From an uncultured Clostridia bacterium (lineage in GTDB: Bacteria; Bacillota; Clostridia; Oscillospirales; CAG-272), in contig CANRFY010000007.1 of NCBI GenBank assembly GCA_947630015.1, positions 2,526-66,525 on the forward strand: 64,000 bases of DNA, in the 5' to 3' direction. The notes beneath the pieces were generated by a model. That model saw only the letters and a list, made by a program, of their open reading frames with translations. It was not told where the DNA came from and did no database searches. The position numbers and the translations under genes are program-made. Within the stretch, counting starts at the first letter, position 1; every line of letters begins with the position of its first letter. This document shows, piece by piece, positions 5,318 to 61,400 of this stretch.

Positions 5318-7270
5318 ATGACGTTTACATTGTCGGGCGCGCTTTTGACGCTGCTCGTGTTTCTGCCGATCGCATCCGCGCCCGTGTGCGCGTATGCGGC
5401 GCGCGGGAACAGGCGCGGATTTTATGCCGTATCGGCCGTATGCGCTGTCGAATGCGCGGCCGCCGTGGGAGCGGCGGCTATGGCGGGATCGGCGAATATA
5501 TTCGGGCTGTCGTTTGAATCGGGCGGATTTCACGGCTTATACGCCGTCGTCGCGGCGTATGCGTTTCTCACCTCGGCTGTGTTTTCGGTCGAATATTTCG
5601 CGCATTATAAAAATCACGCGCGGTACGCGTTTTTCTATATGCTGACGTTCGGGGCCGTCGAGGGCGTGTTCCTCTCGGTCGATCTCGGCACGACGTTCGT
5701 CTTTTTCGAGATCGTATCGTTTGCGTCGTTTGTGTGGGTGCTGCACGACGAAAGCGACGGCGCGATATCGGCGGCGAAAACGTATCTTGCCGTGGCCGTA
5801 TTCGGCGGGATGGCGCTTTTGGGCGGCCTGCTCCTTCTTTATTCAAAATACGGGACGCTGTCGCTTACGGACCCCGCGCCGTCGGACGCGCTTCCGTATC
5901 TGACCGGCTCGCTTCTGCTCGTCGGATTCGGCGCGAAGGCCGGTATGTTCCCGCTTCACATATGGCTGCCGAAGGCGCATCCCGTCGCGCCCGCGCCCGC
6001 AAGCGCGATATTGTCGGGAGTTTTGACTAAGATCGGCGTCTACGGCATCATCGCCGTGACGGTGAGATTTTATTCCGGCGACGCCGCGTGGGGAGCCGCG
6101 CTCATGACGATCGGATGCATAACGCTTCTGCTCGGAGCGTTCCTCGCGCTTTTATCCGCCGATATAAAACGTACCTTGGCCTGCTCGTCGATGTCGCAGA
6201 TCGGATTCATCATGACAGGTATCGCGGCCGTTTCGATACTCGGCGAGGGCGGCGCGATGGCGGCGGCGGGAGTCGTCCTATATATGCTGAATCACACGAT
6301 GATGAAGCTCATACTGTTCTCGATCGCGGGCGTCGTGCATATGGATCTGCACAAGCTCGATCTGAATTCGATACGCGGCTGGGGCCGCGGCAGGTGGGGG
6401 ATGGCGGCGCTGTTCGCATGGGGAGGCGCAGGTCTTGCCGGCGTCCCGGGTACGTGCGGATATATCGCAAAAACGCTGATACACGAGGCGATCACGGAGA
6501 GCGCGGAGTCGGTCCCGCTTGCGGGCGTCGTCGAATGGCTGTTCCTTTTCGGCGGCGGCTGCACGCTTGCATATATGATAAAGCTGTTCGTTGTGCTGTT
6601 CGTCGAGAAGCCGGAAATCGCGCATGAAAAGCGCCGCGCTGGCGCGTTTACGGCTGCGGCGCTCACGATGGCGGCGCTTCCGACGGCGGCTGCCGGCGTC
6701 CCCGCGCTCGCGGGCAGGATTGCGTCGCTCGGGTGGGAATTTGCCGGAGCGCCTGCGGGATCACGCTTTCACGATGTGGGATTTTTCCGTTGGGGGTGCC
6801 TGTCGGGAGCCGTCATAACGGCGTCGATAGGGATCGCGGTCTATTTCCTGTTCGTGAGGACCGTGACGCGGAAGCGCGGCGAATATCGCGATCCGCTGCC
6901 CGCATGGGCCGATCTGGAGCGATCCGTATACGTTCCCGCGATAAAAGCGCTGACGCGCGCCGGCGGCGCTGTGGCGCGGCTGTTCGGCGAAAACGTTGTT
7001 ACGTCGCGCGTCTGCAAGTACGGATTTGCGGCGGCGAAGACAGTATGCGCGGCCGCATCCTCGGCGCTTGACGCCGCCGTATATGCTCTGCGCAGCACCG
7101 TGCTGCGCGCCTCTGACGGGAAAAACGTCCGTCGTCCGAAACGCAGATTCCCGATCCTGCACGCCATTTACCGCGAGCGCCGCACCGACAATTTCTCGTA
7201 TTCGCTGATCATAACCGCGCTCGGCGTCTGCGTGATTCTCATTTTCATATTCATCGCGCCATATGTGTGA
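5318..7270 (+). CDS. MrpA/NuoL-like antiporter subunit with C-terminal extension
   Basis: 650 aa; GMFPLHIWLPKAHPVAPAPASAILSG motif plus about 150-aa extension ending in a TM anchor, like the NuoL/MrpA lateral helix. Confidence 0.8.
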   Translation: MTFTLSGALLTLLVFLPIASAPVCAYAARGNRRGFYAVSAVCAVECAAAVGAAAMAGSANIFGLSFESGGFHGLYAVVAAYAFLTSAVFSVEYFAHYKNHARYAFFYMLTFGAVEGVFLSVDLGTTFVFFEIVSFASFVWVLHDESDGAISAAKTYLAVAVFGGMALLGGLLLLYSKYGTLSLTDPAPSDALPYLTGSLLLVGFGAKAGMFPLHIWLPKAHPVAPAPASAILSGVLTKIGVYGIIAVTVRFYSGDAAWGAALMTIGCITLLLGAFLALLSADIKRTLACSSMSQIGFIMTGIAAVSILGEGGAMAAAGVVLYMLNHTMMKLILFSIAGVVHMDLHKLDLNSIRGWGRGRWGMAALFAWGGAGLAGVPGTCGYIAKTLIHEAITESAESVPLAGVVEWLFLFGGGCTLAYMIKLFVVLFVEKPEIAHEKRRAGAFTAAALTMAALPTAAAGVPALAGRIASLGWEFAGAPAGSRFHDVGFFRWGCLSGAVITASIGIAVYFLFVRTVTRKRGEYRDPLPAWADLERSVYVPAIKALTRAGGAVARLFGENVVTSRVCKYGFAAAKTVCAAASSALDAAVYALRSTVLRASDGKNVRRPKRRFPILHAIYRERRTDNFSYSLIITALGVCVILIFIFIAPYV

Positions 7271-7287
7271 CGCGGAGGGGGCAAAGG

Positions 7288-8030
7288 CGGAGCCTTTGCG
7301 AGCCACGCTATCCCTCAGTTATAACTTTTGCAAAGTTAAAAACCGTTAAGGGTCTCTTTGCCGGCCGGCAAAGAGACGCGAGAGCAAAGGTTGAGCCTTT
7401 GCAATCCTATCTTTTACTTTTCACAAACTTTTTCAAAGTTTTTAAATTTTGTTAAGGGCCTCTTTCTCGCAAGAAAGAGGCCCTTAACGATCCCGAAAGA
7501 GGCTCCCGTGTGGCGTCGACGTTATTCAATCGGCGGAAAGAGGGGTTTGGGGCGTAAAACCGCGATATTATTTCATCAAACGCATCCGTGCCTCCGCGCG
7601 GCGGGTCGAGAGCGATGTTATTCTGTCTTGGTCAATTGATTACTGACAGCGTCAGATTTCGCTCGTGTCGTGCGAACAAATGGGATTCACAACGAGATAC
7701 GAGACGGTTCGCACCGGTTGGCGCGCAGTGTCGTGCATCCGTGAGGGTTTATTTCAGGGCGAACGCGATATCGTCCCTGCTAACAGCTCCCACGCGGACT
7801 TATTCGACTGCGCCGCCGAAATTTCGCGATCGATCCGACGCTGGCAGCGACGGACATCGCACGCGCGTGGTGCGCGTAGGTGAGGCTGGAAAGCCTACGG
7901 CACAGGGGGTGATGTGCGGCGAGAGAGGGAGCGCACCGCGATGAGCTGTTCGCGCACACCTTCAGCGCGTTGTTCTTTTCTTGAGGAGTGTGGGGAAGAA
8001 CTTTTTCTTTAGTGCGAAGAAATCCTCCTC
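7288..8030 (+). repeat. Mosaic intergenic repeat copy R1 (alpha-long, beta, gamma1, delta); degenerate tail to about 8190
   Basis: Hairpin H1 7352-7377, hairpin H2 7451-7488, beta core 7489-7767, gamma1 7768-7932; aligns by eye with the six other loci. Confidence 0.9.
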
Positions 8031-8175
8031 CGCAACAACTCTATCCTCACAAAATAACTTTACAAAATCTCACCCCTGACTAAAACTATCCTCTAAAATT
8101 TGGCAACAATAACAAGGAGCCGTTCCCGTATCCATTACAAAAACTATCGTTGCGGCCTCCCCTCTATTGTCCCCC

Positions 8176-8204
8176 TTGACAAGCGGCTAATTATGTGCTA
8201 TCAT
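8176..8204 (+). promoter_or_regulatory. Candidate sigma-A promoter of rnj (TTGACA-N17-TGcTATCAT), giving a ~185-nt leader
   Basis: Exact -35 TTGACA 8176-8181, 17-nt spacer, extended -10 TGC-TATCAT 8196-8204. Confidence 0.45.
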
Positions 8205-8391
8205 TATCATGGTTGATTACGTACTAAACGCGAACTGACGCGTTTACATATATCCCGCGCGCTTAAAATCCCCTGCGCGCACCACTTGACCCCTGTTATT
8301 GCGGGAGGAACCGACGCGGCGCCCCACCGGCGGCGTTTGCGCTTTCCTCTCTTTTCCGCGTGCCTGCGGCATATCATAAGAAAGGAACTAT

Positions 8392-10074
8392 ATGGCAAGA
8401 AAGAAGAAAACAAAATTAGGCAAGGTAAGAGTCGCCGCCCTCGGCGGCATTGACGAGATCGGAAAAAATCTGTACGTCATCGAATATGAATCCGACATCA
8501 TCGTTGTTGACTGCGGGCTGGGATTTCCCGATGAGGAAATGCCCGGCGTTGATCTTGTGATCCCCGATATCACATACCTTGAAAAGAATGCGGATCGCGT
8601 GCGCGGCATCTATATCACGCACGGACACGAGGATCATATCGGCGCGCTGCCTTATGTGCTGCGCACCCTCCATGTCCCCGTCTACGGGACCCGCCTCACG
8701 CTCGGCATCCTCGAAAGCAAGCTCGCCGAGCATAAGCTCGACTATAAGCCGGAGCTGAACTGCGTCGCCGCCGGCGACGTCATCGCGGCTGGCGAACTCA
8801 CCGTCGAGTTCATCCGCGTCAATCACAGCATCGCGGACGCGTGCGCGCTCGCGATCAAAACGCCGCTCGGGTACATCATCCATACCGGCGACTTCAAATT
8901 TGATCTGTCCCCCATCGACGGCGAGGTCATGGATGTAAAACGTCTCGCCGAGATCGGCGCGGAGGGAGTCCTGCTTCTGATGTGCGACTCCACCAACGCC
9001 GAACGTCCCGGATATACGCCGTCCGAACGCACCGTCGGGACGTCGTTTGATCATATTTTCGCATCGCACACGATGCAGCGCATCATAATCGCGACATTCT
9101 CCTCTAACGTGCATCGCGTTCAGCAGGTCATAGATTGCAGCATCCGTCACGGACGCAAGGTCGCGATCACGGGACGCAGTATGCTGACCGTTGTCGGCGC
9201 GGCCGAACGGCTCGGATACATGGATTTCCCGAAGGGCGCCATCATCGATATAAACGATATCAAAAAATACCCCGACAGCCGCGTCACCATCATCACGACT
9301 GGCTCGCAGGGCGAGCCTATGTCGGCGCTGTCGCGTATGGCGTTCGGCGATCATTCGAGCGTCACGGTCGGGAAAAACGACATCGTCGTCATCTCCGCAA
9401 ACGCGATCCCGGGCAACGAAAAGCTTGTCGGAAAGACTGTAAACGAGCTTTATCGCTGCGGCGCCGAGGTCTATAACGACACCTCGACGCAGATTCACGT
9501 CTCCGGCCACGCGTGCCAGGAGGACCTCAAATTCATGCACGCGCTCACAAAGCCGCGCTATTTTATGCCGATCCACGGCGAACGCCGTCATTTAATGGAG
9601 CATCGAAAGCTCGCCATCTTCATGGGAGAAGCGCCGGAAAACATCTTTGTTCCCGAGACCGGCAAGGTGCTTGAGATCGACGAGGCCGGAGCGAGATGGG
9701 CGGGGACCGTCCCGTCGGGACGTCTTCTCGTCGACGGCACCGGCGTCGGAGACGTCGGCTCCGTTGTGCTGCGCGACAGAATTCTTTTGTCTCAGGACGG
9801 ATTGATAGTCGTATCGGCGGCGATCGATCCTTTGGCGCGCGACATTGTGACGCCGCCCGACATTTACACGCGCGGATTCATTTATGTAAAGGAATCCGAG
9901 GATCTGATGGAGGAAATGCGCGCCGTATCGCTCGATGCGCTGGAGCGCGCCGTGACAGATTATAAGGCGGACATTTCGGACATCAAGAACGAGGTTCGGG
10001 ACTCGCTCTCCAAATTCATATCGAAGCGGGTGAAACGCCGCCCGATAATATTGCCGATCATTTTGGAGGTATAA
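8392..10074 (+). CDS. rnj: Ribonuclease J
   Basis: 560 aa; N-terminal KVRVAALGGIDEIGKN, metallo-beta-lactamase HGHEDHIG motif, beta-CASP layout; ATG preceded by AAAGGAA. Confidence 0.95.
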   Translation: MARKKKTKLGKVRVAALGGIDEIGKNLYVIEYESDIIVVDCGLGFPDEEMPGVDLVIPDITYLEKNADRVRGIYITHGHEDHIGALPYVLRTLHVPVYGTRLTLGILESKLAEHKLDYKPELNCVAAGDVIAAGELTVEFIRVNHSIADACALAIKTPLGYIIHTGDFKFDLSPIDGEVMDVKRLAEIGAEGVLLLMCDSTNAERPGYTPSERTVGTSFDHIFASHTMQRIIIATFSSNVHRVQQVIDCSIRHGRKVAITGRSMLTVVGAAERLGYMDFPKGAIIDINDIKKYPDSRVTIITTGSQGEPMSALSRMAFGDHSSVTVGKNDIVVISANAIPGNEKLVGKTVNELYRCGAEVYNDTSTQIHVSGHACQEDLKFMHALTKPRYFMPIHGERRHLMEHRKLAIFMGEAPENIFVPETGKVLEIDEAGARWAGTVPSGRLLVDGTGVGDVGSVVLRDRILLSQDGLIVVSAAIDPLARDIVTPPDIYTRGFIYVKESEDLMEEMRAVSLDALERAVTDYKADISDIKNEVRDSLSKFISKRVKRRPIILPIILEV

Positions 10075-10132
10075 CTGAGACGCCTCCGGCGTTCGGCGAA
10101 ATTCAAATCCATACGTAAGAGGAAGCAAAGCT

Positions 10133-10432
10133 ATGGTAAAGCACGTAATTTTATGGCGTCTGCGCCGTGATCACGACGAGGATGATCTGATGAAGAAGAT
10201 CGCGTTCTGTGAGGAGGGATTCGCGCGGCTTGTCGGCGTGATCCCCGGGCTTTTGTCCATCAAGCTCTACACGCGTCCGCTGCCGACGTCGAATTGTGAC
10301 TTGATGCTTGACGCGGTGTTTGAGAGCGAGGCGGCGTATTCCGTCTACAAATCAGCGCCGGAGCATATATCCGTGGCGAGCGTGATCCGTCCTCTTGTAG
10401 AGGACAGGATCTGTATGGACTGTGAGATGTAA
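10133..10432 (+). CDS. Dabb (stress-responsive alpha/beta-barrel) family protein
   Basis: 99 aa, MVKHVILW... pattern of Dabb domain; followed by canonical terminator. Confidence 0.7.
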   Translation: MVKHVILWRLRRDHDEDDLMKKIAFCEEGFARLVGVIPGLLSIKLYTRPLPTSNCDLMLDAVFESEAAYSVYKSAPEHISVASVIRPLVEDRICMDCEM

Positions 10433-10456
10433 AAAGGGGGCGCAAGCCCCCTTTTG
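10431..10456 (+). terminator. Rho-independent terminator after Dabb gene
   Basis: AAAAAGGGGGC-GCAA-GCCCCCTTTTG. Confidence 0.8.
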
Positions 10457-10469
10457 TGCTGCCCCTGCG

Positions 10470-11180
10470 GCTGCGACAAAGATTTTCTTTGGCGATGCGC
10501 CACTTCTAATCTAAAACTTTTGCAAAGTTAAAAAAGCGTTAAGGGTCTCTTTGCTGGCCGGCAAAGAGACGCGCGCGCAAAGGATTCTCCTTTGCAATCC
10601 TATCCATTCCTTTTCACAAACTTTTTCAAAGTTTTTAAATTTTGTTAAGGGCCTCTTTCTCGCAAGAAAGAGGCCCTTAACGATCCCGAAAGAGGCTCCC
10701 GTGTGGCGTCAATTCGGCTCAAGTCGGCGGAAAGAATCGCTTGGGGCGTAAACCGCGATTTTATTTTAGCAAACAGTTTCGTGCCTCCGCGCGGCGGGTC
10801 GAGATCGATGCGATCCTGTCTTGGTTAATAGATCACTGATATCGTCAGATTCCGCTTGTGTCGTGCGAACAGCTCCGATTCACAATGAGATACGCGACGG
10901 TTCGCACCGGTTGGCGCGCAATATCGTGCATCCGTGAGGGGTTATGTCAGTGCGAACGCGGGGTTGATTTTGCAAAAATTGTTAGGGCTACGCCGCGAAC
11001 GGATCGAGATCAAAGCGTCAGCGTCGTGGTTAATCGGTTGCTGAGATGGCCAGATCAACCTTGCTTAGTGCGAACAAACGGAACGCACAAAGGGTAACGC
11101 CAGTGTCGCTTTGGCTGGCGTAGGTGGAACAAGGCAACCAGCGATTGCTTACTTTTTGCCACGCAAACGGTAACACGTTT
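10470..11180 (+). repeat. Mosaic repeat copy R2 (alpha-long, beta, gamma2)
   Basis: H2 10644-10681; beta to 10960; gamma2 shared with 27211-27440 and (inverted) 61400-61615. Confidence 0.9.
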
Positions 11181-11231
11181 TTTGTGGACACAGTTTTCCT
11201 CAATATAAATTTTTACAGCAACCGTGACTCA

Positions 11232-11870
11232 ACCCCTCTCGTCGCACCTCATTCCCTGTGCCGTAGGCTTCCCAGCCTCACCTGCGCGCACCGTGCGCGT
11301 GCGATGTCCGTCGCTGCCAGCGTCGGATCGATTGCGACGTTTTGGCGGCGCAGTCGAATAAGTCCGCGTGGGAGCTGTTAGCTGTTAGTGGGATCGCGTT
11401 CGCCCTGACATAAACCCTCACGGAAGCACAAAACTGCACGCCAACCGGTGCAAACCGTCGCGTATCTCATTGTGAATCCCATTTGTTCGCACGACACGAG
11501 CGGAATCTGACGATACCGGCCTCACCCCGTTTGCGACGCTGACGCCTCGATCTCGACCCGCCGCGCGGAGGTACAAAGCTGTTTACCAAAATAATATCGC
11601 GGTTTACGCCCTAAACAATTCTTTCCGCCGATTGAATAACATCGACGCCACACGGGAGCCTCTTTCGGGATCGTTAAGGGCCTCTTTCTTGCGAGAAAGA
11701 GGCCCTTAACATTATTTAAAAACTTTGTAAAGTTTGCAGAAAAGGAAACGATATGATTGCAAAGGAAGCTCCTTTGCGCGGACGCCTCTTTGCCGGCCAG
11801 CAAAGAGGCCCTTAACTCTTTTTTAAACTTTGCAAAAGTTATAGCTTTAGACTGGCGCGAATCGCCTGAA
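11232..11870 (-). repeat. Mosaic repeat copy R3 (alpha-long, beta, gamma1), convergent with R2
   Basis: Reverse complement of the R1-type sequence; H2 11673-11710, H1 11784-11816. Confidence 0.9.
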
Positions 11871-26699: not shown

Positions 26700-27440
26700 A
26701 TTAAAACCTTTGTAAAGGTTTAAATGAAACTTTCTCTTTTGCGATTCTCGCTGTTCCTTATCGAAAACCTTTGAAAAGGTTAAAAATAGTTAAGGGTCTC
26801 TTTGCTGGCCGGCAAAGAGACGCGTGCGCAAAGGATTTTCCTTTGCGATCCTATCGTTTCCTTTTCTGCAAACTTTACAAAGTTTTTAAATTTTGTTAAG
26901 GGCCTCTTTCTCGCAAGAAAGAGGCCCTTAACGATCCCGAAAGAGGCTCCCGTGTGGCGTCGACGTTATTCAATCGGCGGAAAGAATTGTTTCGGGCGTA
27001 AACCGCGATATTATTTTGACAAACAGTTTCGTGCTTCCGCGCGGCGGGTCGAGAGCGAGTTTATTCTGTCTTGGTAAATCGATTCCTGACAGCGTAAGAT
27101 TCCGCTCGTGTCGTGCGAACAGCTCCGATTCACAAAGAGATACAAGACGGCTCGCACCGGTTGGCGCGCAATATCGTGCATCCGTGAGTGTTTATGTCAG
27201 TGCGATCGCGGGGTCACGTTGATAAAAACGTTAGGGCTGCATCGCGAACGGGTCGATATTAAAGCGTCAGCGTCGCAAACGGAATGTGGCTTGTATAGCC
27301 GGATTATCCTCGCGTGGTGCGAACAGCTCTGACGCACAAAGGGAAACGCCAATTTTGCTGGGTAGGCGTAGATGGAACAGGGCAACCAGCGATTGATTGC
27401 TTTTCGCCAAGCAAGTGGACAACAAACAATTACAAATTTC
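26700..27440 (+). repeat. Mosaic repeat copy R4 (alpha-long, beta, gamma2)
   Basis: H1 26789-26822, H2 26895-26932, beta to 27210. Confidence 0.9.
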
Positions 27441-27960
27441 TTGCCAAGAAAACGGGCGTTGTGTTTCTTTTCTTGAGGGTGTTTGAGGGAGGTTCTTTTC
27501 TTTCCCAAAGAAAAGAATCTCACCTCAAAATTAACGGTTCTTTTCTTTTTCAAAGAAAAGAAGCTCACCTCGTAAAAAAGTGGCGCTGGAATTTATATGC
27601 CTTATGGATTTTAGCGCGTCAATGAAAGCAAACGTCCCGCGAAGAGCTGTTCGCACACAGCGAACGCGCGTTGTTCTTTTGGAGAGGGGGTTCGGGGGAG
27701 GACCCTTTCTTTTGAAGAAAGGGTCCTCATCCACAACTGAATCTTTGCAAGAAATGGTCTTCATCCCACACCGGCTCTTTACAAGAAAAGGTCCTCATCC
27801 CAGACCGCATTATTGTGCGAAAAGTCCTCATTCCGATGCGATTTTTAACGAAACTCCTCATCCTGAAACTGTCTTTTAACGAAGAAATCCTCATCCCGAA
27901 TCGGCTTTTATGCGTAAAGAGAACCGCTGATATAATTTCAAATTTTTATAAGAGTTTAGA
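27441..27960 (+). repeat. Mosaic interior: small hairpins (TTCTTTTCTTT-N-AAAGAAAAGAA), delta module and periodic tail
   Basis: delta CCGCGAAGAGCTGTTCGCAC...GAGGACCCTTTCTTTTGAAGAAAGGGTCCTC at 27636-27735, also at 31750-31850 and 53541-53633. Confidence 0.8.
27715..27930 (+). repeat. Six-unit tandem array, period 30-34 nt, core TCCTCATCC
   Basis: Cores at 27724, 27758, 27792, 27825, 27855, 27888; each unit ends CTTT.CAA/TTTAAC + GAAA. Confidence 0.8.
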
Positions 27961-28075
27961 CAATGCATGGCGAGTATTGCAATGGAAAATTCTTTACTCA
28001 CGCGCCTCTTTGCCGGCCAGCAAAGAGACCCTTAACTCTTTTTTAACTTTGCAAAAGTTATAGCTGAGATATGGC
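27960..28075 (-). repeat. Solo inverted alpha fragment (H1 plus outer palindrome)
   Basis: H1 28004-28036, AACTTTGCAAAAGTT 28045-28059. Confidence 0.85.
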
Positions 28076-28095
28076 GAGAATCGCGAAGGAATCCC

Positions 28096-31074: not shown

Positions 31075-31945
31075 AAAGGGATGGGGAAGGTTTCTCCTTG
31101 GCGATTCTATCCATTACTCATCTAAAACTTTTACAAAGTTAAGAAAGAGTTAAGGGTCTCTTTGCTGGCCGGCAAAGAGACCCTTAACAATCCGAGAAAA
31201 CGGCGTGCCGGTGGCGTCGATTCCGCTCCAGTCGGCGGCAGGGGCGTTTCGGGCGTAGACCGCGATATTATTTCGTCAAGCGCGTCCGTTCCTCCGCGCG
31301 GCGCGTCGAGATCGAGGCGTCAGCGTCGCAAACGGAATGAGACTGGTATCGTTAGATTTCGCTCGTTTCGTGCGAACAAATGGGATTCACAACGAGATAC
31401 GAGACGGTTCGCACCGGTTGGCGCGCAATATCGTGCATCTGTGAGGGTTTATGTCAGTGCGAACGCGATATCGCCAACAGCTAACAGCTCCCACGCGGAC
31501 TGATTTGACTGCGCCGAATGAAATGTCGCGACCGATCCGACGCTGGCAGCGACGGGCATCGCACGCGCGTTGTGCGCGTAGGTGAGGCTGTAAAGCCTAC
31601 GGCACGGTGGGTGAGGTGCGGCGAGAGAGGGAGTGATTTGTGGTAGGTGTAAAAACTTATGCCAAAGAAAATTGCGCCCACCGAAGTGAGCGCATTGTTT
31701 TTAGATATCTGATTTGTTTGCGCGTTGATGGCACTTGCGCGATAAAAACAAACGCTCCGCGAAGAGCTGTTCGCACCCAGCAAACGCGCGTTGTTCTTTT
31801 GGAGAGGGGGTATGGGGGAGGACCTTTTCTTTTAAGAAAGGGTCCTCATCCCTAACCGCATCTTTGCAAGAAAAGATTCACATTTCAGACAATCAATTTT
31901 CGCAAAAAGCACTTATCTATGGCTGTCTTCAAAAATTCAAGTAAC
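31075..31945 (+). repeat. Mosaic repeat copy R5 (alpha-short, beta, gamma1, J, delta, tail)
   Basis: Single 40-nt perfect hairpin 31149-31188; beta to 31467; gamma1 to 31632. Confidence 0.9.
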
Positions 31946-37659: not shown

Positions 37660-37849
37660 GGTTTTTGTCCTTTCGCTTTGTCTGTACGGTCATCATACAC
37701 CGCCGCGCGGGGAAAATCGTGGCGAGTCCGCAGCGTGAGAAATAATTTGTTTTGGCCTGCGGTGCGGATAAAGCGAGTCTTTTTGGGGAAAAGGGGGAGT
37801 TGCGCTCCCCTTGCCCCACGGTTGTAACTTTTGTAAAAGTTGGGAAAAG

Positions 37850-38690
37850 AGATTCCTTGGCGATTCACGATGCTGTTTATATAAAAGTTTTGCAAAAGTT
37901 AAGAAAAGTGTTAAGGGTCTCTTTGCTGGCCGGCAAAGAGACGCACGCGCAAAGGATGAACCTTTGCAATCCTATCTTTTACTTTTCACAAACTTTTTCA
38001 AAGTTTTTAAATTATGTTAAGGGCCTCTTTCTCGCAAGAAAGAGGCCCTTAACGATCCCGAAAGAGGCTCCCGTGTGGCGTCAATTCGGCTCCAGTCTGC
38101 GGAAAGAAGGGGTTGGGGCGTAAACCGCGATTTAAATTTAGTAAGCGCGATCGTGCCTCCGCGCGTCGGGTCGAGAGCGAGGCGATTCTGTCTTGGTTAA
38201 TCGTTTACTGACATCGTCAGATTTCGCTCGTGTCGTGCGAACAGCTCCGATTCACAAAGAGATACGAGACGGCTCGCACCGGTTGGCACGCAGTTTTGTG
38301 CATCCGTGAGTGTTTATGTCAGGGCAAACGCGATTTTATTTTTTGCTAACAGCTCCCACGCGGACTTATTTGACTGCGCCGCCTGAAATGGCGCAGTAAA
38401 TCTGACGCTGGCAGCGTCGGACATCGCACGAGTTCGGTGCGCGCAGGTGAGGCTGGGAAGCCTACGGCACAGGGGTGAGGTGCGTCGATAGAGGGGAAGA
38501 TTGGCAAATTTTGTATAAACTCATTTTAAAGAAAACTGCGTCGAACAAAGTGAGCGCATTGTTTTTCGTGGATATCAAAGTTGTTCGCGCGTTGATGGCA
38601 CTCAGGCGAAAGAATAACCATACCGCGAAGAACTATTCGCACTCAGCGTCAGCGCGGTATTCTTTTATTTCCTTTTCCGCCATACAAATC
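37850..38690 (+). repeat. Mosaic repeat copy R6 (alpha-long, beta, gamma1, J, delta-like)
   Basis: H1 37910-37942, H2 38016-38053, beta to 38332, gamma1 to 38495. Confidence 0.9.
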
Positions 38691-40417: not shown

Positions 40418-42052
40418 TCAGAATCTGAGTCTGAACGCCACAGAACCCATCGAAATCTCGTCGCCGCTGCGCAGACGGTTCGGCGCGTAAATGCGCATAC
40501 CGCCAAGCCTCGTCCCGTCCGGCGTGCCGAAATCCTCGATGTAGACGATCTGATCCTTTACGAATATGCGCGCGTGTACGGGCGCAACGTCGGGATTCTT
40601 CCATACGATGTCGCACTTCGGCTTGCTTCCGATCGTGAGTTCTTCGTCAAGATAAAGCGTCCTCGGTCCCGCATAGCTGCCCGCGATCACGTCGAGCTTC
40701 ATATAGATGCCCTTGCCCGCGGCAGCCGCGCCTCCGGCGCGCTTTTTATTCTTTTTGCCAGCTCTCGCAACCGCGATCACGGCGATTATGAGCAGCACGG
40801 CAACGACGCCGACGATCACCCATATAAGCACTTTATCGCCGAAGAACTTCGAGAAAAAGCTCTCCGATCCGCCCGTCTCGGCGTCGGTCTCCGCCTCCGC
40901 CGTGAAGCCGTCGGTGCCGGCGTCTGTACCGGCGTCTGTGCCGATCTCGGTCTCGCGTCCGCCGTCAGTGTCCGGCGCATCCGTCGCGGGTTCGTCGGTC
41001 GCGGGTTCATCCGTCGCCGCAGGTTCCTCGGTGCTGTCGGGTTCCTCGGTGTCGACCGTATCGATCGGATCAGCCGTATCGGCTGTATCGGAGCCCTCCG
41101 ATTCCGTATCGATCGGACGCGATGTGATCAGCATCGGAACGCCGCTCAAAACAGACGTTTTGAGCGTCACATCGCCGCCGTCCCCGTCCTTGCCCGCGAA
41201 TTCGAGCTGCACCGACTTCGTGCCTGTCAACTCGCCCGCGCCCTTGAAGCAGGCTGCGTAAAGTCCGTTCACGTACTGCGCAAGATCATGGCCTGCCTTG
41301 GCCGCCGTCATCTCAGCATTGATGAACATCCTCATGCCGTTCACGTCGTCGAGCGCCTTGAACGCGTCGCCGCCCCATTCAGCGCCAACGCAGAGCGTAT
41401 GCGCGATCACGTCGGGATGCGATGCGATCGCATCCTCGAGCGCGCTTTTCGCGCTTTTATCTATCGTCGGCACGCGGCCGTCCGAGATTATGACGAGATT
41501 GACGGCCTCGCCGTCCCTCTCGACGCCTCGCAGATACTCGTATGCCTCGACGATGCCGCCGAATACGCCCACGGCGGATTCCTCATATTTGACATTCTTT
41601 ACCGCGTTCGAGACAGCCTTTTTCCCGACGAGGCCCTCGGCCTCGATCTTTAGTCCGTTCGCGCACGTCGCGACGGCAAAGACCGCGTCCTCGGAGTCTT
41701 TCGCCAGCTCCTCCGCGAACGTCTCGGCGCTGCGCTTCACGCCCGCCATTGTCGCCGACGTATCGATAAGGATCAGATACGCCGCCGGCGTATCGCTTTC
41801 CCCGACCGTCGTAAGAGGCGACGACGCGCCCGATTTGCCGGATATTATCGACGCGCTCTCGAACGTAACGCCGCCGACAGCGCTCGCATCCGCGAATGTG
41901 TAGATGTCGGCGCCCTCGCCGTATGCGGAAACTAATTTGACGCCCGCGTTGATTCCGTCGGCGGTTATGCCGTCGCCGGCGGCGAACGCCGGCATCGCGA
42001 TGCAGATCGCGAGCATTATCGACACGACGATAAACGCTGTTTTTTTGTTCAT
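40418..42052 (-). CDS. Signal peptide - vWA-like ectodomain - TM - cytoplasmic FHA domain protein
   Basis: MNKKTAFIVVSIMLAICIAMPAFA signal; LILIDTSATM MIDAS-like; acidic T/D/E-rich linker; TM VLIWVIVGVVAVLLIIAVIAV; C-terminal FHA (LTIGSKPKCDIVW...VHARIF...IEDFGTPDGTRLGG). Confidence 0.8.
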   Translation of the reverse strand: MNKKTAFIVVSIMLAICIAMPAFAAGDGITADGINAGVKLVSAYGEGADIYTFADASAVGGVTFESASIISGKSGASSPLTTVGESDTPAAYLILIDTSATMAGVKRSAETFAEELAKDSEDAVFAVATCANGLKIEAEGLVGKKAVSNAVKNVKYEESAVGVFGGIVEAYEYLRGVERDGEAVNLVIISDGRVPTIDKSAKSALEDAIASHPDVIAHTLCVGAEWGGDAFKALDDVNGMRMFINAEMTAAKAGHDLAQYVNGLYAACFKGAGELTGTKSVQLEFAGKDGDGGDVTLKTSVLSGVPMLITSRPIDTESEGSDTADTADPIDTVDTEEPDSTEEPAATDEPATDEPATDAPDTDGGRETEIGTDAGTDAGTDGFTAEAETDAETGGSESFFSKFFGDKVLIWVIVGVVAVLLIIAVIAVARAGKKNKKRAGGAAAAGKGIYMKLDVIAGSYAGPRTLYLDEELTIGSKPKCDIVWKNPDVAPVHARIFVKDQIVYIEDFGTPDGTRLGGMRIYAPNRLRSGDEISMGSVAFRLRF

Positions 42053-42074
42053 TGATCCGTCCTCCCACAGTCCG

Positions 42075-42809
42075 TCATCTGACGATGACGGTCATTAGCG
42101 AAAGATTGTCGTTTCCGCGTCCGATGCGCGAGATCACGCGGAGCAGCAGATGCTCCGCCCAGTCGCGCGCGTCGATCGATTTCAACAGATCGAGCGGCAC
42201 TTCGTCGTCGAACAGGTATTCCCAAACGCCGTCGGAGCAGAGCAGAAACGCGTCGCCGGACATAAGCGGCTCCGGCGAGCCGCCGATATCGGGCTGATTG
42301 CGGTCAGCGCCGCCGAGCGTGCGCAGAAGATACGACTGATCCTCGTCCTGTCCGATCTGATGGCGCGTTATCTCGCCCGCCTGATACTTCTTGTACGCGA
42401 CGGAATGATCGTCCGTGACGCTCAGTATAGCGCCGTCGCGCAGATAGTAGAGGCGCGAATCGCCCACGTTGGCCCATGTCGCGCGATCGCCGTCAACGGC
42501 GAGGACGACGACGGTGCTTTTCATCGTGGCGCGGCGCTCCGTCTGGAGCTTCATGACCTCGGTATTCGCAAGCGCGATCTTATCGCGCAGCCATTCCGCG
42601 CGGTCGCCGCATTCAGTCTCGCGTTCCCATTCGGACGCAAGCGTTTCCGCGACGCAGGACGACGCAACCTCTCCGAGCTGATGGCCGCCGAGTCCGTCGG
42701 CGACGACGAATATACCGGAGCCGTCGCGGAGCCTGCACGCGACCGAATCCTCATTCTGCTCTCTGTCGCCGGCGTTTGTGTAGTAAAATACGTCTAATAT
42801 CATAGGCAT
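42075..42809 (-). CDS. PP2C-family Ser/Thr phosphatase (1)
   Basis: 244 aa; REQNEDS, VADGLGGH, CSDGV motifs. Confidence 0.9.
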   Translation of the reverse strand: MPMILDVFYYTNAGDREQNEDSVACRLRDGSGIFVVADGLGGHQLGEVASSCVAETLASEWERETECGDRAEWLRDKIALANTEVMKLQTERRATMKSTVVVLAVDGDRATWANVGDSRLYYLRDGAILSVTDDHSVAYKKYQAGEITRHQIGQDEDQSYLLRTLGGADRNQPDIGGSPEPLMSGDAFLLCSDGVWEYLFDDEVPLDLLKSIDARDWAEHLLLRVISRIGRGNDNLSLMTVIVR

Positions 42810-44203
42810 TACGAAAGCTCGACACGCATCATGTTGGCGCGGTCGCCGAGATAGAAGCTGTCGCCGGATTTAAGTCTGTACGCCATGCCCGCCACGAGCT
42901 TTGTGCCGTTCACGAGATACGTTCCGTATGTGGAGCGCAGATCGGTAAGCACGAATTCGCCCGTCGCGCGGTCATAGCTTACGGAGCAGTGACGCGTGCT
43001 GACGCCCGGGGTGCCGTCGCGGAACACGATCTGGCACGTCGCCTTGTCGCGTCCGATCAAAAGCTGCGCGCCCGTGATCGCGACTCTCATGCCGCCGTGC
43101 TGTTCGGACAGCGAACGCACCGACGGCGTCTGTGCCGGCGACGGCACACCCGCGCCGACGGCTGCGGGACCTGCTGCCGGCGTCTGAGCCGGCGTCTGGC
43201 CCTTCTTTATAAGCAGCACTACGACAACGCCTATAACGACGACGACAAGAACGCCGATGAGGACGATCGCGGCCGTGCTGATATTGAATGTGCTGGTTGT
43301 GGGTTTGACATCGATCTTCAGATCTTCAAGAATGTCCAAAACATACTCAATTTCTATCGAATACTGAGTCTTGGAGTCGCCCGACGACGAATCGGGACTC
43401 ATTGTCCAAGTATTGACGCCGACGACTCTGCCTTTTTCGTCTATAAGCGGTCCGCCCGAGTTGCCGTGGTTGATCGTCGCCGTATGCTGGATAACTCTGA
43501 CGTCGGTATCGTCGGCCGCTACCGTCGTATGAAGCGACACGATACCGCTTGTGACCGTTACCTTTTCAACGCTTGCCGCATACTCCTTGCCGGAGAAATT
43601 GCCGAGCGTCGCATCGTCTGTCGTTCCTGGGAATCCGAGCGCGTATACGGTGTCGCCCGATTCGATCTCCTCGTCCTCGGGGAGAAGCGGGAGTGCGACT
43701 CTGCCCTCCATCGGCTCCGCCGCTCTCAGAACGGCGAGGTCGGCCTCGTCCTCATCCGCCTCGTAAAGCACGCGGCACGGGATCGCGCGGCTCTTGTCAA
43801 GCTCGCCGTTGGAATCCATTGCGAAATCGTCCTTGAGCAGATAGATGCTCGTTACGCGTCCTTGGAACACGTAGTATTCGCCGTTGATCTCCTGCAATGA
43901 CGCGGTGTCTCTTTCAATTACGTGTCTGTTCGTAACGAACACGTCTGTCTCGCCGCCCGTATTGCCGACGCCGAACGCGGTGCCTGTCGACGTCATGTAG
44001 CCCGTGCCGTAATACGACAGATCGTCCGAGGCCACATCATATTTATAAACATCGCAATCGTCATAAATAGCCAAAACTCTCGCAACGCCGTTTCTCGATT
44101 CAGCCGCGATATTGTTGCCGCTCTTCCCCGTCGACGCGCATCCGGATAAAGCCAGCGCGAGTATCATCGCGATAAGTATCGCGCATACTGTTCTTTTTTT
44201 CAT
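42809..44203 (-). CDS. Lipoprotein signal - trypsin-like (S1C) protease ectodomain - TM - FHA domain protein
   Basis: LALSGCAS lipobox; TNRHV and GNSGGPLIDEKGRVVGVNT protease motifs; TM AAIVLIGVLVVVVIGVVVVLLI; C-terminal FHA (LLIGRDKATCQIVF...STRHCSV...DLRSTYGTYLNG-like). Confidence 0.82.
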   Translation of the reverse strand: MKKRTVCAILIAMILALALSGCASTGKSGNNIAAESRNGVARVLAIYDDCDVYKYDVASDDLSYYGTGYMTSTGTAFGVGNTGGETDVFVTNRHVIERDTASLQEINGEYYVFQGRVTSIYLLKDDFAMDSNGELDKSRAIPCRVLYEADEDEADLAVLRAAEPMEGRVALPLLPEDEEIESGDTVYALGFPGTTDDATLGNFSGKEYAASVEKVTVTSGIVSLHTTVAADDTDVRVIQHTATINHGNSGGPLIDEKGRVVGVNTWTMSPDSSSGDSKTQYSIEIEYVLDILEDLKIDVKPTTSTFNISTAAIVLIGVLVVVVIGVVVVLLIKKGQTPAQTPAAGPAAVGAGVPSPAQTPSVRSLSEQHGGMRVAITGAQLLIGRDKATCQIVFRDGTPGVSTRHCSVSYDRATGEFVLTDLRSTYGTYLVNGTKLVAGMAYRLKSGDSFYLGDRANMMRVELS

Positions 44204-44238
44204 TTTCTTTTTCCTGCTTTCCGTTAATTTAAAGTGGA

Positions 44239-45057
44239 TCAATAGCCGCAGTATATACACAGCGCCGTGTAGTTGTCCTGATGCTTCCTGCCCTGACGTC
44301 TGATCTCCTCGTCGATGGCGGCGCACGCCTCCGTCGGCGTCGCGCGCCCGAGATAATCGAGCATCTGGCCGTCGGTCAGAACGCCGCCGACGCCGTCCGA
44401 GCAGATCAGGAGCGCATCGTTCTCGCGGAGCGGGAACGGCGAACGGAGATAATCGACCTCATTCATCCCGTCCATCCCCAAAAACTGCGTCAGCGCGGCC
44501 TTTTCGGGATTGCTCTCGGCCGGCTCGGGGTCCATGCTTCCGTCGCGGATCGCTTCGAGGTAGAGCTGGTTTCTGTATGTATGCTCGCGGTTGAGGCGGT
44601 ACAAGTGTCCCTCGCGCTTCAACAAAATGAAGCTGTCCCCGACGCTGGCGAAATAGAGCCGTTCGCGGAATATGATGCACGCGACGACGGTGCTGCCGCC
44701 GTCTCCGCCGAGACGGGAAAGCACCTGCGCGCTCGCCTTTACGACGGCGCGGCGGAGCTGTTCCGCTATATCGCCGTCGCGGTCGAACTCGGCAAATTCT
44801 CCGCGCAGACATGAAATCGCGGTCTCGCTTGCGATCTTACCGTCCTTCATGCCTCCCATTCCGTCCGCGACGACGGCGAAGAGACCCTTATTCTTCATTT
44901 CGGTCACGTCGAGCGCGTTTACGATCAGAAACGAATCCTCCTGTCTTGCGCGCGCGCCGATCCCCTGAAGATTTGCGGCCTGATAGCTCAGGAGCCGAGG
45001 CGTCGGCGTGTTCGGCGCCGTATCCTCTGCCGGTTCCTTATGGGAGAATGGCCACAT
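44239..45057 (-). CDS. PP2C-family Ser/Thr phosphatase (2)
   Basis: 272 aa; RARQEDS, VADGMGGM, CSDGV motifs. Confidence 0.9.
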   Translation of the reverse strand: MWPFSHKEPAEDTAPNTPTPRLLSYQAANLQGIGARARQEDSFLIVNALDVTEMKNKGLFAVVADGMGGMKDGKIASETAISCLRGEFAEFDRDGDIAEQLRRAVVKASAQVLSRLGGDGGSTVVACIIFRERLYFASVGDSFILLKREGHLYRLNREHTYRNQLYLEAIRDGSMDPEPAESNPEKAALTQFLGMDGMNEVDYLRSPFPLRENDALLICSDGVGGVLTDGQMLDYLGRATPTEACAAIDEEIRRQGRKHQDNYTALCIYCGY

Positions 45058-45063
45058 ATCGTT

Positions 45064-45711: not shown

Positions 45712-45760
45712 GATGTTCCTCCTGAATTGTGTTTTATATATTTTTTCAGAGATAGCGTTA

Positions 45761-48576: not shown

Positions 48577-48612
48577 ACGACATCCCTCAAGCTGTATGAT
48601 TTGCGATCGACA

Positions 48613-50991: not shown

Positions 50992-51033
50992 TTCTGTCCC
51001 TCGGATATGATTTTTCGTATATGTGTCAAGGCG

Positions 51034-53382: not shown

Positions 53383-53536
53383 GATTTTGGTTAATTTTTT
53401 TGTAATAGTTTGTCATTTGAAAGATGAGGAGGGGGAAGGCGAGGCTATTTTCTTTAAAAAGAAAACAACCTCACCTTGCAAAAAGGTGGGGGTTGAAAGT
53501 CTATGGCAGGGGATGTTAGTGCGTCGGTCGAAGCAA

Positions 53537-53640
53537 CCGCCCCGCGAAGAGCTGTTCGCACACAGCTTCAGCGCGTTGTTCTTTTGGAGAGGGTGTTTGG
53601 GGGAGGACCCTTTCTTTTGAAGAAAGGGTCCTCAGCCCAA
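53537..53640 (+). repeat. Solo delta module
   Basis: CCGCGAAGAGCTGTTCGCACACAGC...hairpin 53603-53633. Confidence 0.85.
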
Positions 53641-60694: not shown

Positions 60695-61400
60695 GAAAGC
60701 TTTTGCAAAGTTAGAAAGGCGTTAGGGCGATTCCTTGGCGGTACGCGCCGGTCCTTATCTAAACTTTTGCAAAGGTTTTAGTTAAATTTTCTCTTTCGCG
60801 ATACTCCCCAGTCCTCATCTAACACTTTTTCAAAGTTTAAAAAGAGTTAAGGGTCTCTTTGCTGGCCGGCAAAGAGACCCTTAACAATCCCAGAAAACGG
60901 CGTGCCGGTGGCGTCGATACGGCTCCAGTCGGCGGAAAGAATTGTTTCGGGCGTAAACCGCGATCTTATTTTGGCAAACAGTTTCGTGCTTCCGCGCGGC
61001 GCGTCGAGATCGATGTTATTATGTCTTGGTTAATTGATTCCTGACAGTGTTAGATTCCGCTCGTGTCGTGCGAACAGATGGGATTCACAAAGAGATACGC
61101 GACGGTTTGTTCCGGTTGGCGCGCAGTTTCGTGCATCCGTGAGTGTTTGTGTCAGTGCGAACGCGATCTCGTCAACTGCAAACAGCTCCCACGCGGACTT
61201 ATTCGACTGCGCCGCCGAAACGTCGCGATCGATCCGACACTGGTAGCGACGGACATCGCACGCGCGTAGTGCGCGCAGGTGAGGCTGGAAAGCCTACGGC
61301 ACAGGGGATGAGGTGCATCGAGAGGGGGATGTGGCGCGGTTGCTGTAAAACTAATGTTGAGGCAAGTTGCGCGCACTCGCAAATAAGCGCGTTGCCGTTC
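60695..61400 (+). repeat. Mosaic repeat copy R8 (triplicated outer palindrome, alpha-short, beta, gamma1, J)
   Basis: Hairpin 60846-60885; beta to 61165; gamma1 to 61330. Confidence 0.9.

What the first reader, a model, noticed from the sequence alone, without database searches (positions are those of the whole stretch)
7768..7932. Stems conserved, loops free to vary, and a GNRA tetraloop maintained: an RNA-structure signature inside the repeat
In the five gamma1 copies the hairpin AGGCT-NNNN-AGCCT (7883-7896 in R1) keeps its stem while the loop reads GGAA (R1, R8), GGGA (R3, R6) or GTAA (R5). All three are GNRA tetraloops. The neighbouring hairpin CGCAC-(7 nt)-GTGCG (7858-7876) keeps its stem while the loop varies (GCGCGTG, GCGCACG, GCGCGTT, GAGTTCG, GCGCGTA). 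Beta contains the 8-nt inverted pair GTGCGAAC (7670-7677) and GTTCGCAC (7707-7714), and delta carries GAGCTGTTCGCAC, which is complementary to the GTGCGAACAGCTC found in several beta copies. This pattern fits selection on a folded transcript, such as a structured ncRNA, a ribozyme or a guide-RNA-like scaffold, better than neutral decay of a dead element.
Basis: partly seen in the sequence, partly recalled or inferred. Interest (0 to 1): 0.75.

Follow-up and report, generated by a model that had tools for sequence, protein, structure and literature searches.

The report
Hairpin module of mosaic intergenic repeat
The two small hairpins are real and their stems are kept pairable across copies, but they sit in one module of a species-specific, patchwork intergenic repeat (like pneumococcal BOX or E. 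coli BIME elements), and nothing shows a large folded RNA, ribozyme or guide scaffold.

Summary
All five gamma1 copies in the window, plus three more from public short contigs, keep CGCAC-N7-GTGCG and AGGCT-GNRA-AGCCT with variable loops (GGAA x5, GGGA x2, GTAA x1).

Gamma1 is one module of a mosaic repeat that fills seven intergenic regions, about 11% of this origin-proximal window of an uncultured Clostridia genome. I did not find the family anywhere outside this species. It was missing from syntenic loci of five relatives, from genome, metagenome, viral, plasmid and phage collections, and from Rfam.

Evidence for a hairpin constraint:
- Stem substitutions are almost all transitions: 15:2, against 34:43 in conserved flanks (p=0.001).
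- Ten of them give G·U on the + strand.
- Loops are hypervariable.
- GNRA is retained (p about 0.007).

Evidence against a folded-RNA gene:
- There are no compensatory changes in 17-28 gamma1 pairs.
- Folding stability shows no excess (mean z -0.5 on +, -1.2 on -).
- Consensus folding is no better than shuffled alignments.
- The beta-delta complementarity does not covary.
- The alpha terminator points to the opposite strand.

Best reading: local stem-loops in a BOX/BIME-like mosaic repeat, probably acting in cis on co-transcribed RNA. Single-stranded-DNA hairpins remain possible. Interest is moderate to low.

The parts
7768..7932 (+). Gamma1 module, copy R1 (the finding).
   Evidence: Alignments A1, A2 and A4. 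The covariance model scores it 185.8 bits. An independent assembly, L007, is 99.94% identical over 7761-10996.
7835..7853 (+). Hairpin Pb: CCGACGCT-GGC-AGCGACGG, with an internal A·A mismatch.
   Evidence: Five of 7 pairs are invariant. One pair shows C-G to U·G in 2 copies. One copy has an A·C cell (R8).
7858..7874 (+). Hairpin H1: CGCAC-N7-GTGCG. Five of its seven loop positions vary.
   Evidence: The stem is paired in all cells of 8 copies. The only stem change is C to U, giving U·G, in L024.
7883..7896 (+). Hairpin H2: AGGCT-GNRA-AGCCT.
   Evidence: Loops are GGAA x5, GGGA x2 and GTAA x1. The stem changes are A to G, giving G·U, in L010 and L024.
7782..7800 (+). Invariant unpaired 19-mer AACAGCTCCCACGCGGACT at the 5' side of gamma1.
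   Evidence: Five of five exact matches in the window against 0.01 expected. It is invariant in 7 of 8 copies; L024 has one change. Matches elsewhere in public collections are chance hits only.
7489..7767 (+). Beta module of R1. It includes the CTGAC-AGC-GTCAG hairpin (7644-7656) and the GTGCGAAC / GTTCGCAC pair (7670-7677 / 7707-7714).
   Evidence: One internal segment exists in two alternative versions, type A and type B, which shows mosaicism.
7293..7488 (+). Alpha module of R1, long form. It holds the AACTTTTGCAAAGTT palindromes and two long hairpins (7345-7377 and 7451-7488).
   Evidence: Compensatory T-A to C-G changes via T·G occur among alpha copies.
7933..7995 (+). Delta module of R1, with GAGCTGTTCGCGC followed by a T-run.
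   Evidence: Repeat family D15; motif hits.
11233..11400 (-). Gamma1 copy R3. It is part of an inverted composite with R2 (10512-11232, +), between the convergent genes Dabb and pgsA.
   Evidence: 184.2 bits.
31480..31633 (+). Gamma1 copy R5 (loop GTAA), followed by a hairpin terminator at 31673-31694.
   Evidence: 176.9 bits.
38345..38495 (+). Gamma1 copy R6 (loop GGGA).
   Evidence: 171 bits.
61177..61329 (+). Gamma1 copy R8 (loop GGAA). It faces the inverted partial element R9 (61604-61960, -).
   Evidence: 181.4 bits.
53484..53530 (+). Truncated, decayed remnant of the gamma1 3' end. The loop is TGAA and one stem pair is broken.
   Evidence: 76% identity to 7878-8010; sequence.
31149..31188 (-). 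Short-form alpha hairpin: 17 bp plus a T-run. It is terminator-like on the element's minus strand.
   Evidence: The same feature occurs at 60846-60885(-) and 61884-61923(+).

Best explanation
Gamma1 is one module of a species-restricted, mosaic, hairpin-rich interspersed repeat. Its modules are alpha, beta, gamma1, epsilon, delta and 34-nt tandem units. The family has colonised the intergenic regions of this Clostridia genome, in the manner of BOX elements in pneumococcus or BIMEs in E. coli.

The three small gamma1 stem-loops (Pb, H1 and the GNRA-capped H2) are kept able to pair. The most likely reason is that the element is co-transcribed with neighbouring genes as long 3'-UTR or intergenic RNA. 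There the stem-loops would act locally in cis, as nuclease barriers, processing sites or protein-binding sites. They do not look like parts of one globally folded, trans-acting RNA.

- Shown: the family structure, its narrow distribution, and the wobble-only substitution pattern in stems.
- Inferred: that the element is transcribed, which strand is used, and the cis function.
For: **Family anatomy and distribution**
- There are seven composite loci covering 6,937 nt, 10.8% of the window.
- Modules combine in different ways. Alpha has long and short forms, beta has type A/B cassettes, and gamma1, epsilon and delta can each be present or absent.
- Alpha is always the outermost module. In 8 of 10 cases it abuts the 3' end of a gene in the same orientation.
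- The family is absent from about 70 kb of syntenic DNA in five relatives with 88-91% RNase J identity.
- It is also absent from the genome and metagenome scans, from plasmids, phages and viral contigs, and from Rfam.
- A strain contig that is 99% identical carries a different, inverted module right after the Dabb terminator.
- Short-read assemblies of this organism break at the repeats.

**Hairpin constraint**
- Stem substitutions are 15 transitions to 2 transversions, against 34:43 in conserved-context background (p=0.001).
- Ten of 15 give G·U on the + strand, where 25% is expected (p=8e-4).
- 99.3% of cells are paired in Pb, H1 and H2 over 8 copies.
- The loops are hypervariable.
- GNRA is kept in 8 of 8 full copies and lost in the truncated remnant.
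- Alpha hairpins show true compensatory changes.

**Not coding**
- There is no codon periodicity (35/47/42 variable columns by codon position, p=0.42).
- Single-base indels occur between copies, and there are no Pfam hits.

**Analogy**
- BOX, RUP and SPRITE are species-restricted and modular. They have extensive secondary structure, are co-transcribed, and were judged parasitic (PMC3049150).
Against: - There is no transcript evidence.
- The strand is ambiguous. GNRA and the 10:5 wobble bias favour the + strand, but that bias alone is not significant (p=0.30).
- The alpha hairpin plus T-run is a terminator for the minus strand. Minus-strand folds are also slightly more stable.
- A predicted flanking helix, GCGAT/ATCGC, accumulates A·C mismatches on the + strand.
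- Long invariant unpaired blocks, such as the 19-mer, are not explained by simple stem-loop function.
- Only 8 copies are available and they exchange segments, so the substitution events are not independent.
- No mobilising enzyme or target-site duplication was found.
Confidence: 0.5

Rival explanations
1. The constraint acts on DNA. The small inverted repeats and the recurrent GTGCGAAC motif would be recognised as single-stranded DNA hairpins or as duplex palindromes. The recogniser could be a transposase or recombinase, as with REP/REPIN elements and their RAYT enzyme or IS200/IS605 ends. It could also be a host DNA-binding protein. The stems would then be kept for that recognition while the spacers drift.
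For: - GTGCGAAC occurs 19 times inside the repeats and once outside. There are four per element, in alternating orientation, which is the pattern of a binding-site array.
- H1 is itself two inverted GTGCG cores.
- Alpha modules form terminal inverted repeats around four of the seven loci.
- The elements show strain-level rearrangement and coincide with a synteny break.
- RNA folding stability shows no excess.
- A transition bias in stems is also expected for a single-stranded DNA hairpin that tolerates G·T.
- REP hairpins with conserved stems are bound as DNA by RAYTs (PMC3116915, PMC3479197).
Against: - There is no transposase or recombinase gene in 64 kb.
- No target-site duplication is visible at the R2/R3 borders (sequence).
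- Retention of GNRA has no obvious meaning in duplex DNA.
- The half-site changes in L024 are not symmetric.
- A·C mismatches, which destabilise DNA, make up only about a third of stem changes.
Confidence: 0.22
2. Beta-gamma1, with or without delta, would be a multi-copy, independently transcribed structured ncRNA of about 450-550 nt. It could be a ribozyme, a guide-like scaffold or a regulatory RNA. It would start at a promoter inside long-form alpha and end at the epsilon/delta terminator.
For: - A promoter-like site, TTCACA-17-TAAATT, sits just upstream of the second alpha hairpin in R1, R2 and R6.
- A hairpin plus T-run follows gamma1 in R5, R6 and L011.
- The GNRA loop and the G·U-only changes in H1 and H2 fit an RNA.
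- Large invariant unpaired blocks could be tertiary or binding motifs.
Against: - There are no compensatory pairs.
- Alifold finds no supporting covariation.
- Mean + strand z is -0.47 for gamma1 and +0.58 for beta.
- The alignment-shuffle z is -1.2.
- There is no Rfam relative.
- The promoter motif is absent from short-alpha copies that still carry gamma1 (R5, R8). It is altered in R3 and R4 (TCTGCA).
- The beta-delta pairing does not covary.
- The family is absent from relatives.
- There is no associated effector gene.
Confidence: 0.1
3. There is no functional constraint on the hairpins. The copies would be young and homogenised by gene conversion. The variable patches would be mutational hotspots or segregating cassette alleles, and the GNRA and wobble pattern would be coincidence noticed after the fact.
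For: - Copies are clearly mosaic, with type A/B cassettes and shared polymorphisms in different combinations.
- The evidence rests on only 4-6 events in H2 and 15-18 in all stems.
- The hairpins were chosen after looking at the data.
- The single-sequence hairpin content is what chance gives.
Against: - The transition/transversion contrast between stems and equally conserved flanks (p=0.001-0.003) was not the criterion used to pick the hairpins.
- 135 of 136 cells are paired.
- The truncated remnant has decayed in both loop and stem.
- Alpha hairpins show compensatory changes.
Confidence: 0.15

Closest known systems
BOX elements of Streptococcus pneumoniae (boxA-boxB(n)-boxC), with RUP and SPRITE
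   Same: - Modular interspersed intergenic repeats with a variable number of modules.
- Extensive predicted secondary structure.
- Restricted to one species and its nearest kin.
- Co-transcribed with neighbouring genes and regarded as parasitic or non-autonomous (PMC3049150).
   Different: - There is no sequence similarity.
- The present elements are several-fold larger, 0.7-1.4 kb composites against roughly 100-600 nt.
- They have more module types and sit in a G+C-rich Clostridia genome.
- Transcription has not been shown here.
BIMEs / REP elements of enterobacteria and pseudomonads, and REPINs with their RAYT transposases
   Same: - Mosaic combinations of palindromic units in alternating orientation, at the 3' ends of genes.
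- Stems are conserved while loops vary.
- Proposed roles in mRNA stabilisation, termination and protein binding (PMC3116915, PMC3733652, PMC3184786).
   Different: - REPs are 20-40 nt, carry a GTAG or CGTC tag, and come with a RAYT gene. Neither the tag nor a RAYT is seen here.
- Here the small hairpins are embedded in long conserved non-palindromic sequence.
MITEs such as the Correia elements of Neisseria
   Same: - Non-coding, multi-copy and intergenic.
- Inverted terminal modules (alpha(+)...alpha(-)) occur at four loci.
- The elements may carry promoters and terminators that affect neighbouring genes (PMC10969869).
   Different: - There are no defined short terminal inverted repeats with target-site duplications.
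- Three loci have only one alpha.
- The element is far more heterogeneous than a MITE family.
GNRA-capped helices of large structured RNAs (group I and II introns, RNase P, and OLE, GOLLD or ROOL-type RNAs)
   Same: A 5-bp helix capped by GGAA, GGGA or GUAA, with G·U-tolerant stem changes on one strand.
   Different: - There is no Rfam hit, no covariation and no thermodynamic signal.
- No tetraloop receptor or multi-helix core was identified.
- The element is multi-copy and confined to one species.

Membership tests
Any described RNA family (Rfam 15) | A covariance-model match at or near the family's gathering score. | tested here: not met
   There are no hits at gathering score in the 64 kb. 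At E<=10 only weak hairpin-type hits appear in alpha, and none in beta or gamma1.
Conserved structured ncRNA (generic) | Compensatory base-pair covariation above background. | tested here: not met
   No pairs have changes on both sides among 28 or 17 pairs. The alifold covariation term is +0.87. Power is low because there are only 8 copies at about 87% identity.
Conserved structured ncRNA (generic) | Folding energy clearly below shuffled controls, and a consensus fold better than shuffled alignments. | tested here: not met
   Mean z is -0.47 (+) and -1.16 (-) for gamma1, and +0.58 / -0.02 for beta. The alignment-shuffle z is -1.2 / -0.95.
Conserved structured ncRNA (generic) | Stem substitutions restricted to pair-preserving types, with free loops. 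| tested here: met
   Stem substitutions are 15 transitions to 2 transversions, against 34:43 in flanks (p=0.001). 99.3% of cells are paired. GNRA is kept in 8 of 8 copies.
Mosaic interspersed repeats (BIME/BOX kind) | Many intergenic copies built from a small set of modules in variable combination and orientation. | tested here: met
   There are seven loci and at least six module types. Alternative cassettes and both inverted and tandem arrangements occur.
Mosaic interspersed repeats (BIME/BOX kind) | Narrow phylogenetic distribution and structural polymorphism between strains. | tested here: met
   The family is absent from five relatives' syntenic loci. Strain contig L008 differs at window position 10456.
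Mosaic interspersed repeats (BIME/BOX kind) | Co-transcription with flanking genes. | not testable with these tools
   No expression data are available. The only indication is positional: alpha lies next to a gene's 3' end in 8 of 10 cases.
REP/REPIN-RAYT | A 20-40-nt palindrome with a GTAG/CGTC tag and an associated RAYT (Y1 HUH transposase) gene. | tested here: inconclusive
   There is no such tag on H1, H2 or the alpha hairpins. No transposase is in the window. The rest of the genome is not available.
MITE | Defined terminal inverted repeats plus a target-site duplication. | tested here: not met
   Alpha inverted pairs flank 4 of 7 loci. No direct repeat flanks the R2/R3 composite (sequence), and three loci have a single alpha.
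Guide-RNA scaffolds (TnpB/IscB omega RNA, tracrRNA, IS110 bridge RNA) | An adjacent effector gene, and a match to the corresponding RNA model. | tested here: not met
   No TnpB, IscB, Cas or IS110 gene appears among the 40 ORFs scanned. There is no Rfam hit such as HEARO.
Protein-coding gene or pseudogene | A conserved reading frame, codon-position bias and homologues. | tested here: not met
   The frame is broken in half of the copies. Variable columns by codon position are 35/47/42 (p=0.42), and single-base indels occur. There are no Pfam hits. The only protein-database hits are the same repeat on tiny contigs.

The most novel reading that the evidence does not exclude
Beta-gamma1 is a lineage-specific, multi-copy structured RNA gene. 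It would be transcribed from the promoter-like site in long-form alpha and would begin with a protective 5' hairpin. Its GNRA-capped helix and invariant single-stranded blocks, such as AACAGCUCCCACGCGGACU with its UCCC core, would act in trans. It could serve as a regulatory or guide-like RNA, or as the RNA component of an undescribed mobile element that spreads without an adjacent protein gene.
Probability: 0.1. Interest if true: 0.7.

Novelty: new member of a known kind. Interest (0 to 1): 0.35.

Why it matters
If the reading is right, this is a previously undescribed and unusually large and complex family of mosaic intergenic repeats in an uncultured gut-type Clostridia lineage.

- It occupies about a tenth of the origin-proximal region.
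- It breaks short-read assemblies.
- It marks synteny breaks and differences between strains.

The family is useful in three ways: as a marker, as an explanation for the fragmented MAGs of this organism, and as a test case for how hairpin-bearing repeats are kept pairable.

It does not currently open a new class of RNA. The specific claim of an RNA-structure signature comes down to local stem-loops with wobble-tolerant stems.

Tried and rejected
- **Known RNA family.** Rfam gave nothing for beta or gamma1, at gathering score or at E<=10. ARAGORN found no tRNA or tmRNA.
- **More copies from public data.**
  - Scans of genome contigs and metagenome contigs with the invariant 19-mer returned only chance hits, in Streptomyces and elsewhere. 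A viral scan with the H2 flank also returned only chance hits.
  - blastn against plasmids and phages found nothing.
  - Searching the protein database with spurious ORFs that gene callers place in the repeat recovered only four tiny ENA contigs. Three of them added gamma1 copies.
- **Orthologous copies in relatives.** Five loci around RNase J (88-91% identity) contain no module, by blastn with word size 7 or by covariance model.
- **Coding hypothesis.** Rejected.
- **Long-range helices.** The alifold long-range pairs carry no covariation. The beta-delta and beta-tail-delta GTGCGAAC pairings do not covary within elements.
- **Strand assignment.** It could not be settled. GNRA and G·U favour the + strand, while the alpha terminator and z-scores favour the - strand.
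- **Promoter for a stand-alone RNA.** The TTCACA-17-TAAATT site is present only in some long-alpha copies.
- **Mobile-element hallmarks.** No transposase is in the window and no target-site duplication was seen.

Full report
**Observation.**
CGCAC lies at 7858-7862, a 7-nt loop follows, and GTGCG lies at 7870-7874. AGGCT is at 7883-7887, GGAA at 7888-7891 and AGCCT at 7892-7896.

Pattern searches and alignments find exactly five gamma1 copies in the window: 7768-7932(+), 11233-11400(-), 31480-31633(+), 38345-38495(+) and 61177-61329(+). The beta inverted pair at 7670-7677 / 7707-7714 is present. So is the delta reverse complement of beta's GTGCGAACAGCTC.

**What surrounds it.**
Gamma1 is one module of a composite dispersed repeat that fills seven intergenic regions:
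- 7293-8036
- 10512-11860, two elements head to head
- 26700-28089
- 31087-31910
- 37820-38669
- 53440-53830
- 60690-61960, again head to head

Together these cover 6,937 nt, 10.8% of the window.

The modules are:
- **Alpha.** One to three tandem units, each with the palindrome AACTTTTGCAAAGTT, an A-run and a 17-bp hairpin GTTAAGGGYCTCTTT...AAAGAGRCCCTTAAC. It comes in long and short forms.
- **Beta.** It has two alternative internal cassettes, and sometimes a diverged second copy.
- **Gamma1.**
- **A hairpin-plus-T-run unit ('epsilon')** after gamma1.
- **Delta.**
- **34-nt tandem units.**

Alpha is always the outermost module. In 8 of 10 cases it lies next to the 3' end of a gene in the same orientation.

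The window itself is the chromosomal origin region of a Clostridia genome. It carries dnaA, dnaN, recF, gyrB, gyrA, recA, parA, parB, gidB and gidA. RNase J relatives are annotated as Eubacteriales or Oscillospiraceae MAGs. None of the 40 ORFs scanned is a transposase, reverse transcriptase, Cas, TnpB or IscB.

**Distribution.**
The family appears confined to this species.
- The invariant gamma1 19-mer gave only chance matches in 596 Gb of genomes and in JGI metagenomes.
- blastn against plasmids and phages found nothing, and a viral scan gave only chance matches.
- Five relatives with 88-91% RNase J identity have short, repeat-free intergenic regions at the syntenic locus, and none of their roughly 70 kb matches any module by blastn or covariance model. 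Those with enough upstream sequence on the contig carry a different gene upstream of RNase J.
- Contigs of the same organism from ENA short-read assemblies end at the repeats.
- One of them, 99% identical over rnj-Dabb, carries a different, inverted module immediately after the Dabb terminator.

I searched the protein database with the spurious ORFs that gene callers place in the repeat. This recovered four tiny contigs. Three of them (L010, L011, L024) add gamma1 copies, which brings the total to eight.

**Tests of the RNA-structure reading: negative results.**
- No predicted gamma1 pair shows a compensatory change. That is 0 of 28 pairs with seven copies and 0 of 17 with eight copies. Twelve of the 17 never vary, which says nothing either way.
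- RNAalifold's covariation term over beta-gamma1 is +0.87 kcal/mol.
- Single-sequence folding is unremarkable. R1 gamma1 has z = -0.14 on the + strand and -2.30 on the - strand. Over eight copies the mean z is -0.47 / -1.16 for gamma1 and +0.58 / -0.02 for beta.
- Consensus folding energy is no better than for column-shuffled alignments, with z -1.2 on + and -0.95 on - for gamma1.
- Rfam has nothing for beta or gamma1, even at E<=10.
- The beta-delta complementarity is not maintained within elements. R5 has ...AACAAATG in beta but GAGCTGTT... in delta. R6's delta has diverged independently.
- GTGCGAAC recurs four times per element in alternating orientation. It is found 19 times inside the repeats against once outside. 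This is the behaviour of a reiterated motif, not of a helix.

**Tests of the RNA-structure reading: positive results.**
I took five local hairpins defined only by perfect inverted repeats in the consensus: Pb, H1 and H2 in gamma1, and CTGAC/GTCAG and GTGCGAAC/GTTCGCAC in beta.
- Their 62 stem columns carry 15 transition and 2 transversion events. Equally conserved non-stem columns carry 34 and 43 (Fisher p=0.001). With three further beta copies the figures are 15:3 and p=0.003.
- Ten of the stem changes give G·U on the + strand and four or five give A·C. About 25% G·U would be expected from the measured substitution spectrum (p=8e-4). The + versus - asymmetry on its own is not significant (p=0.30).
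- Loops carry 14 events in 17 columns.
- In H2, the four column-level changes are loop G to U at position 2, loop A to G at position 3, and two stem A to G changes. All are compatible with a GNRA-capped helix. The chance of that is about 0.007. This p-value is optimistic, because the hairpin was picked after the fact from roughly ten in the family.
- The truncated gamma1 remnant at 53484-53530 has UGAA and a G·G clash, which is what relaxed constraint looks like.
- Alpha hairpins show real compensation. One pair appears as T-A, T·G, C-G and C·A among copies. A C-G to T-A double change is shared by two copies.
- The region is not coding. The frame is broken in half the copies, there is no codon periodicity, single-base indels occur, and there are no Pfam hits.

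**Strand.**
The evidence conflicts.
- For the + strand: GNRA is meaningful only there, and the wobble bias leans that way.
- For the - strand: the short-form alpha hairpin followed by a T-run is an intrinsic-terminator-like site on the element's minus strand in R5, R8 and R9. It would stop transcripts that run from inside the element toward the neighbouring gene. The minus strand also folds slightly better.

At convergent gene pairs (Dabb/pgsA and GH/gidB) both strands may well be transcribed as long overlapping 3' UTRs. That is inference.

**Interpretation.**
The best-supported account is that gamma1 is a module of a newly seen, species-restricted mosaic repeat family of the BOX/BIME kind. 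Its small stem-loops are kept pairable, most probably because they act locally in co-transcribed RNA (confidence 0.5).

Croucher et al. (PMC3049150) reached the same type of conclusion for BOX, RUP and SPRITE. Those elements are modular, species-restricted, structure-rich and co-transcribed, and were judged probably parasitic.

The rivals are:
- DNA-level recognition of hairpins or of the reiterated GTGCGAAC motif by a transposase or host protein, as with REP/RAYT (0.22; PMC3116915, PMC3479197).
- A stand-alone structured ncRNA (0.10).
- No constraint at all (0.15).

There is a pairing constraint on the hairpins, but nothing supports a ribozyme, a guide-like scaffold or a globally folded RNA.

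**Limits.**
- Only eight gamma1 copies are available.
- The copies exchange segments, so events are not independent.
- There are no expression data, and the rest of the genome is not available.

Noticed in passing
window 27711-27900 (also 31834-31909, 53620-53661; inverted in L008 2400-2650): Tandem 34-nt units with the core GGTCCTCATCC lie between the repeat's delta module and the next alpha, upstream of dnaA. The first unit contains TCATCCACA, which matches 8 of 9 bases of the DnaA-box consensus TTATCCACA. Whether these units belong to oriC or only to the repeat family is unknown.
   Followed up: partly
window 31149-31188(-), 60846-60885(-), 61884-61923(+): The short-form alpha hairpin (17 bp) followed by a T-run is terminator-like only on the element's minus strand. 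It therefore faces outward toward the adjacent gene's 3' end. At convergent gene pairs this would allow 3' UTRs of about 1 kb that overlap each other.
   Followed up: partly
window, all repeat loci (e.g. 7670, 7707, 7747, 7943): The 8-mer GTGCGAAC occurs 19 times inside the repeats (2.7 per kb) and once in the remaining 57 kb. There are four copies per element, in alternating orientation, which suggests a reiterated binding motif.
   Followed up: partly
window 10456 vs L008 2337-2651: A strain contig is 99% identical over rnj-Dabb. Immediately after the Dabb terminator it switches to a different, inverted repeat module. This is structural polymorphism between strains at a repeat locus.
   Followed up: partly
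window 5318-8391 vs L012, L013, L026, L027: Relatives carry an NTP-transferase gene and a 92-aa ORF upstream of RNase J. The window instead has an Mrp/Nuo-type antiporter gene followed by repeat R1. The synteny break coincides with the repeat.
   Followed up: no
window 47122-53310 (-), with 40418-47125: Three tandem paralogous Ser/Thr kinase genes share about 75-80% identical segments. They have different C-terminal domains (Laminin_G_3, RCC1) and internal coding tandem repeats of 9 nt (47379-47496) and 18 nt (49528-49736). They lie next to a cluster of FHA, PP2C, trypsin-like and PrsW genes.
   Followed up: no
window 7345-7488 and equivalents: Long-form alpha looks like short-form alpha with a second hairpin unit of about 113 nt nested inside the 3' arm of the first hairpin. 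The nested unit carries a promoter-like TTCACA-17-TAAATT just upstream of its hairpin.
   Followed up: partly
window 8205-8391: A leader of about 190 nt, G+C-rich and containing several inverted repeats, lies between the strong promoter (TTGACA-17-TATCAT with TG, 8176-8204) and the RNase J start codon. Only its last 60 nt or so are conserved in a relative (L025). It was not analysed.
   Followed up: no
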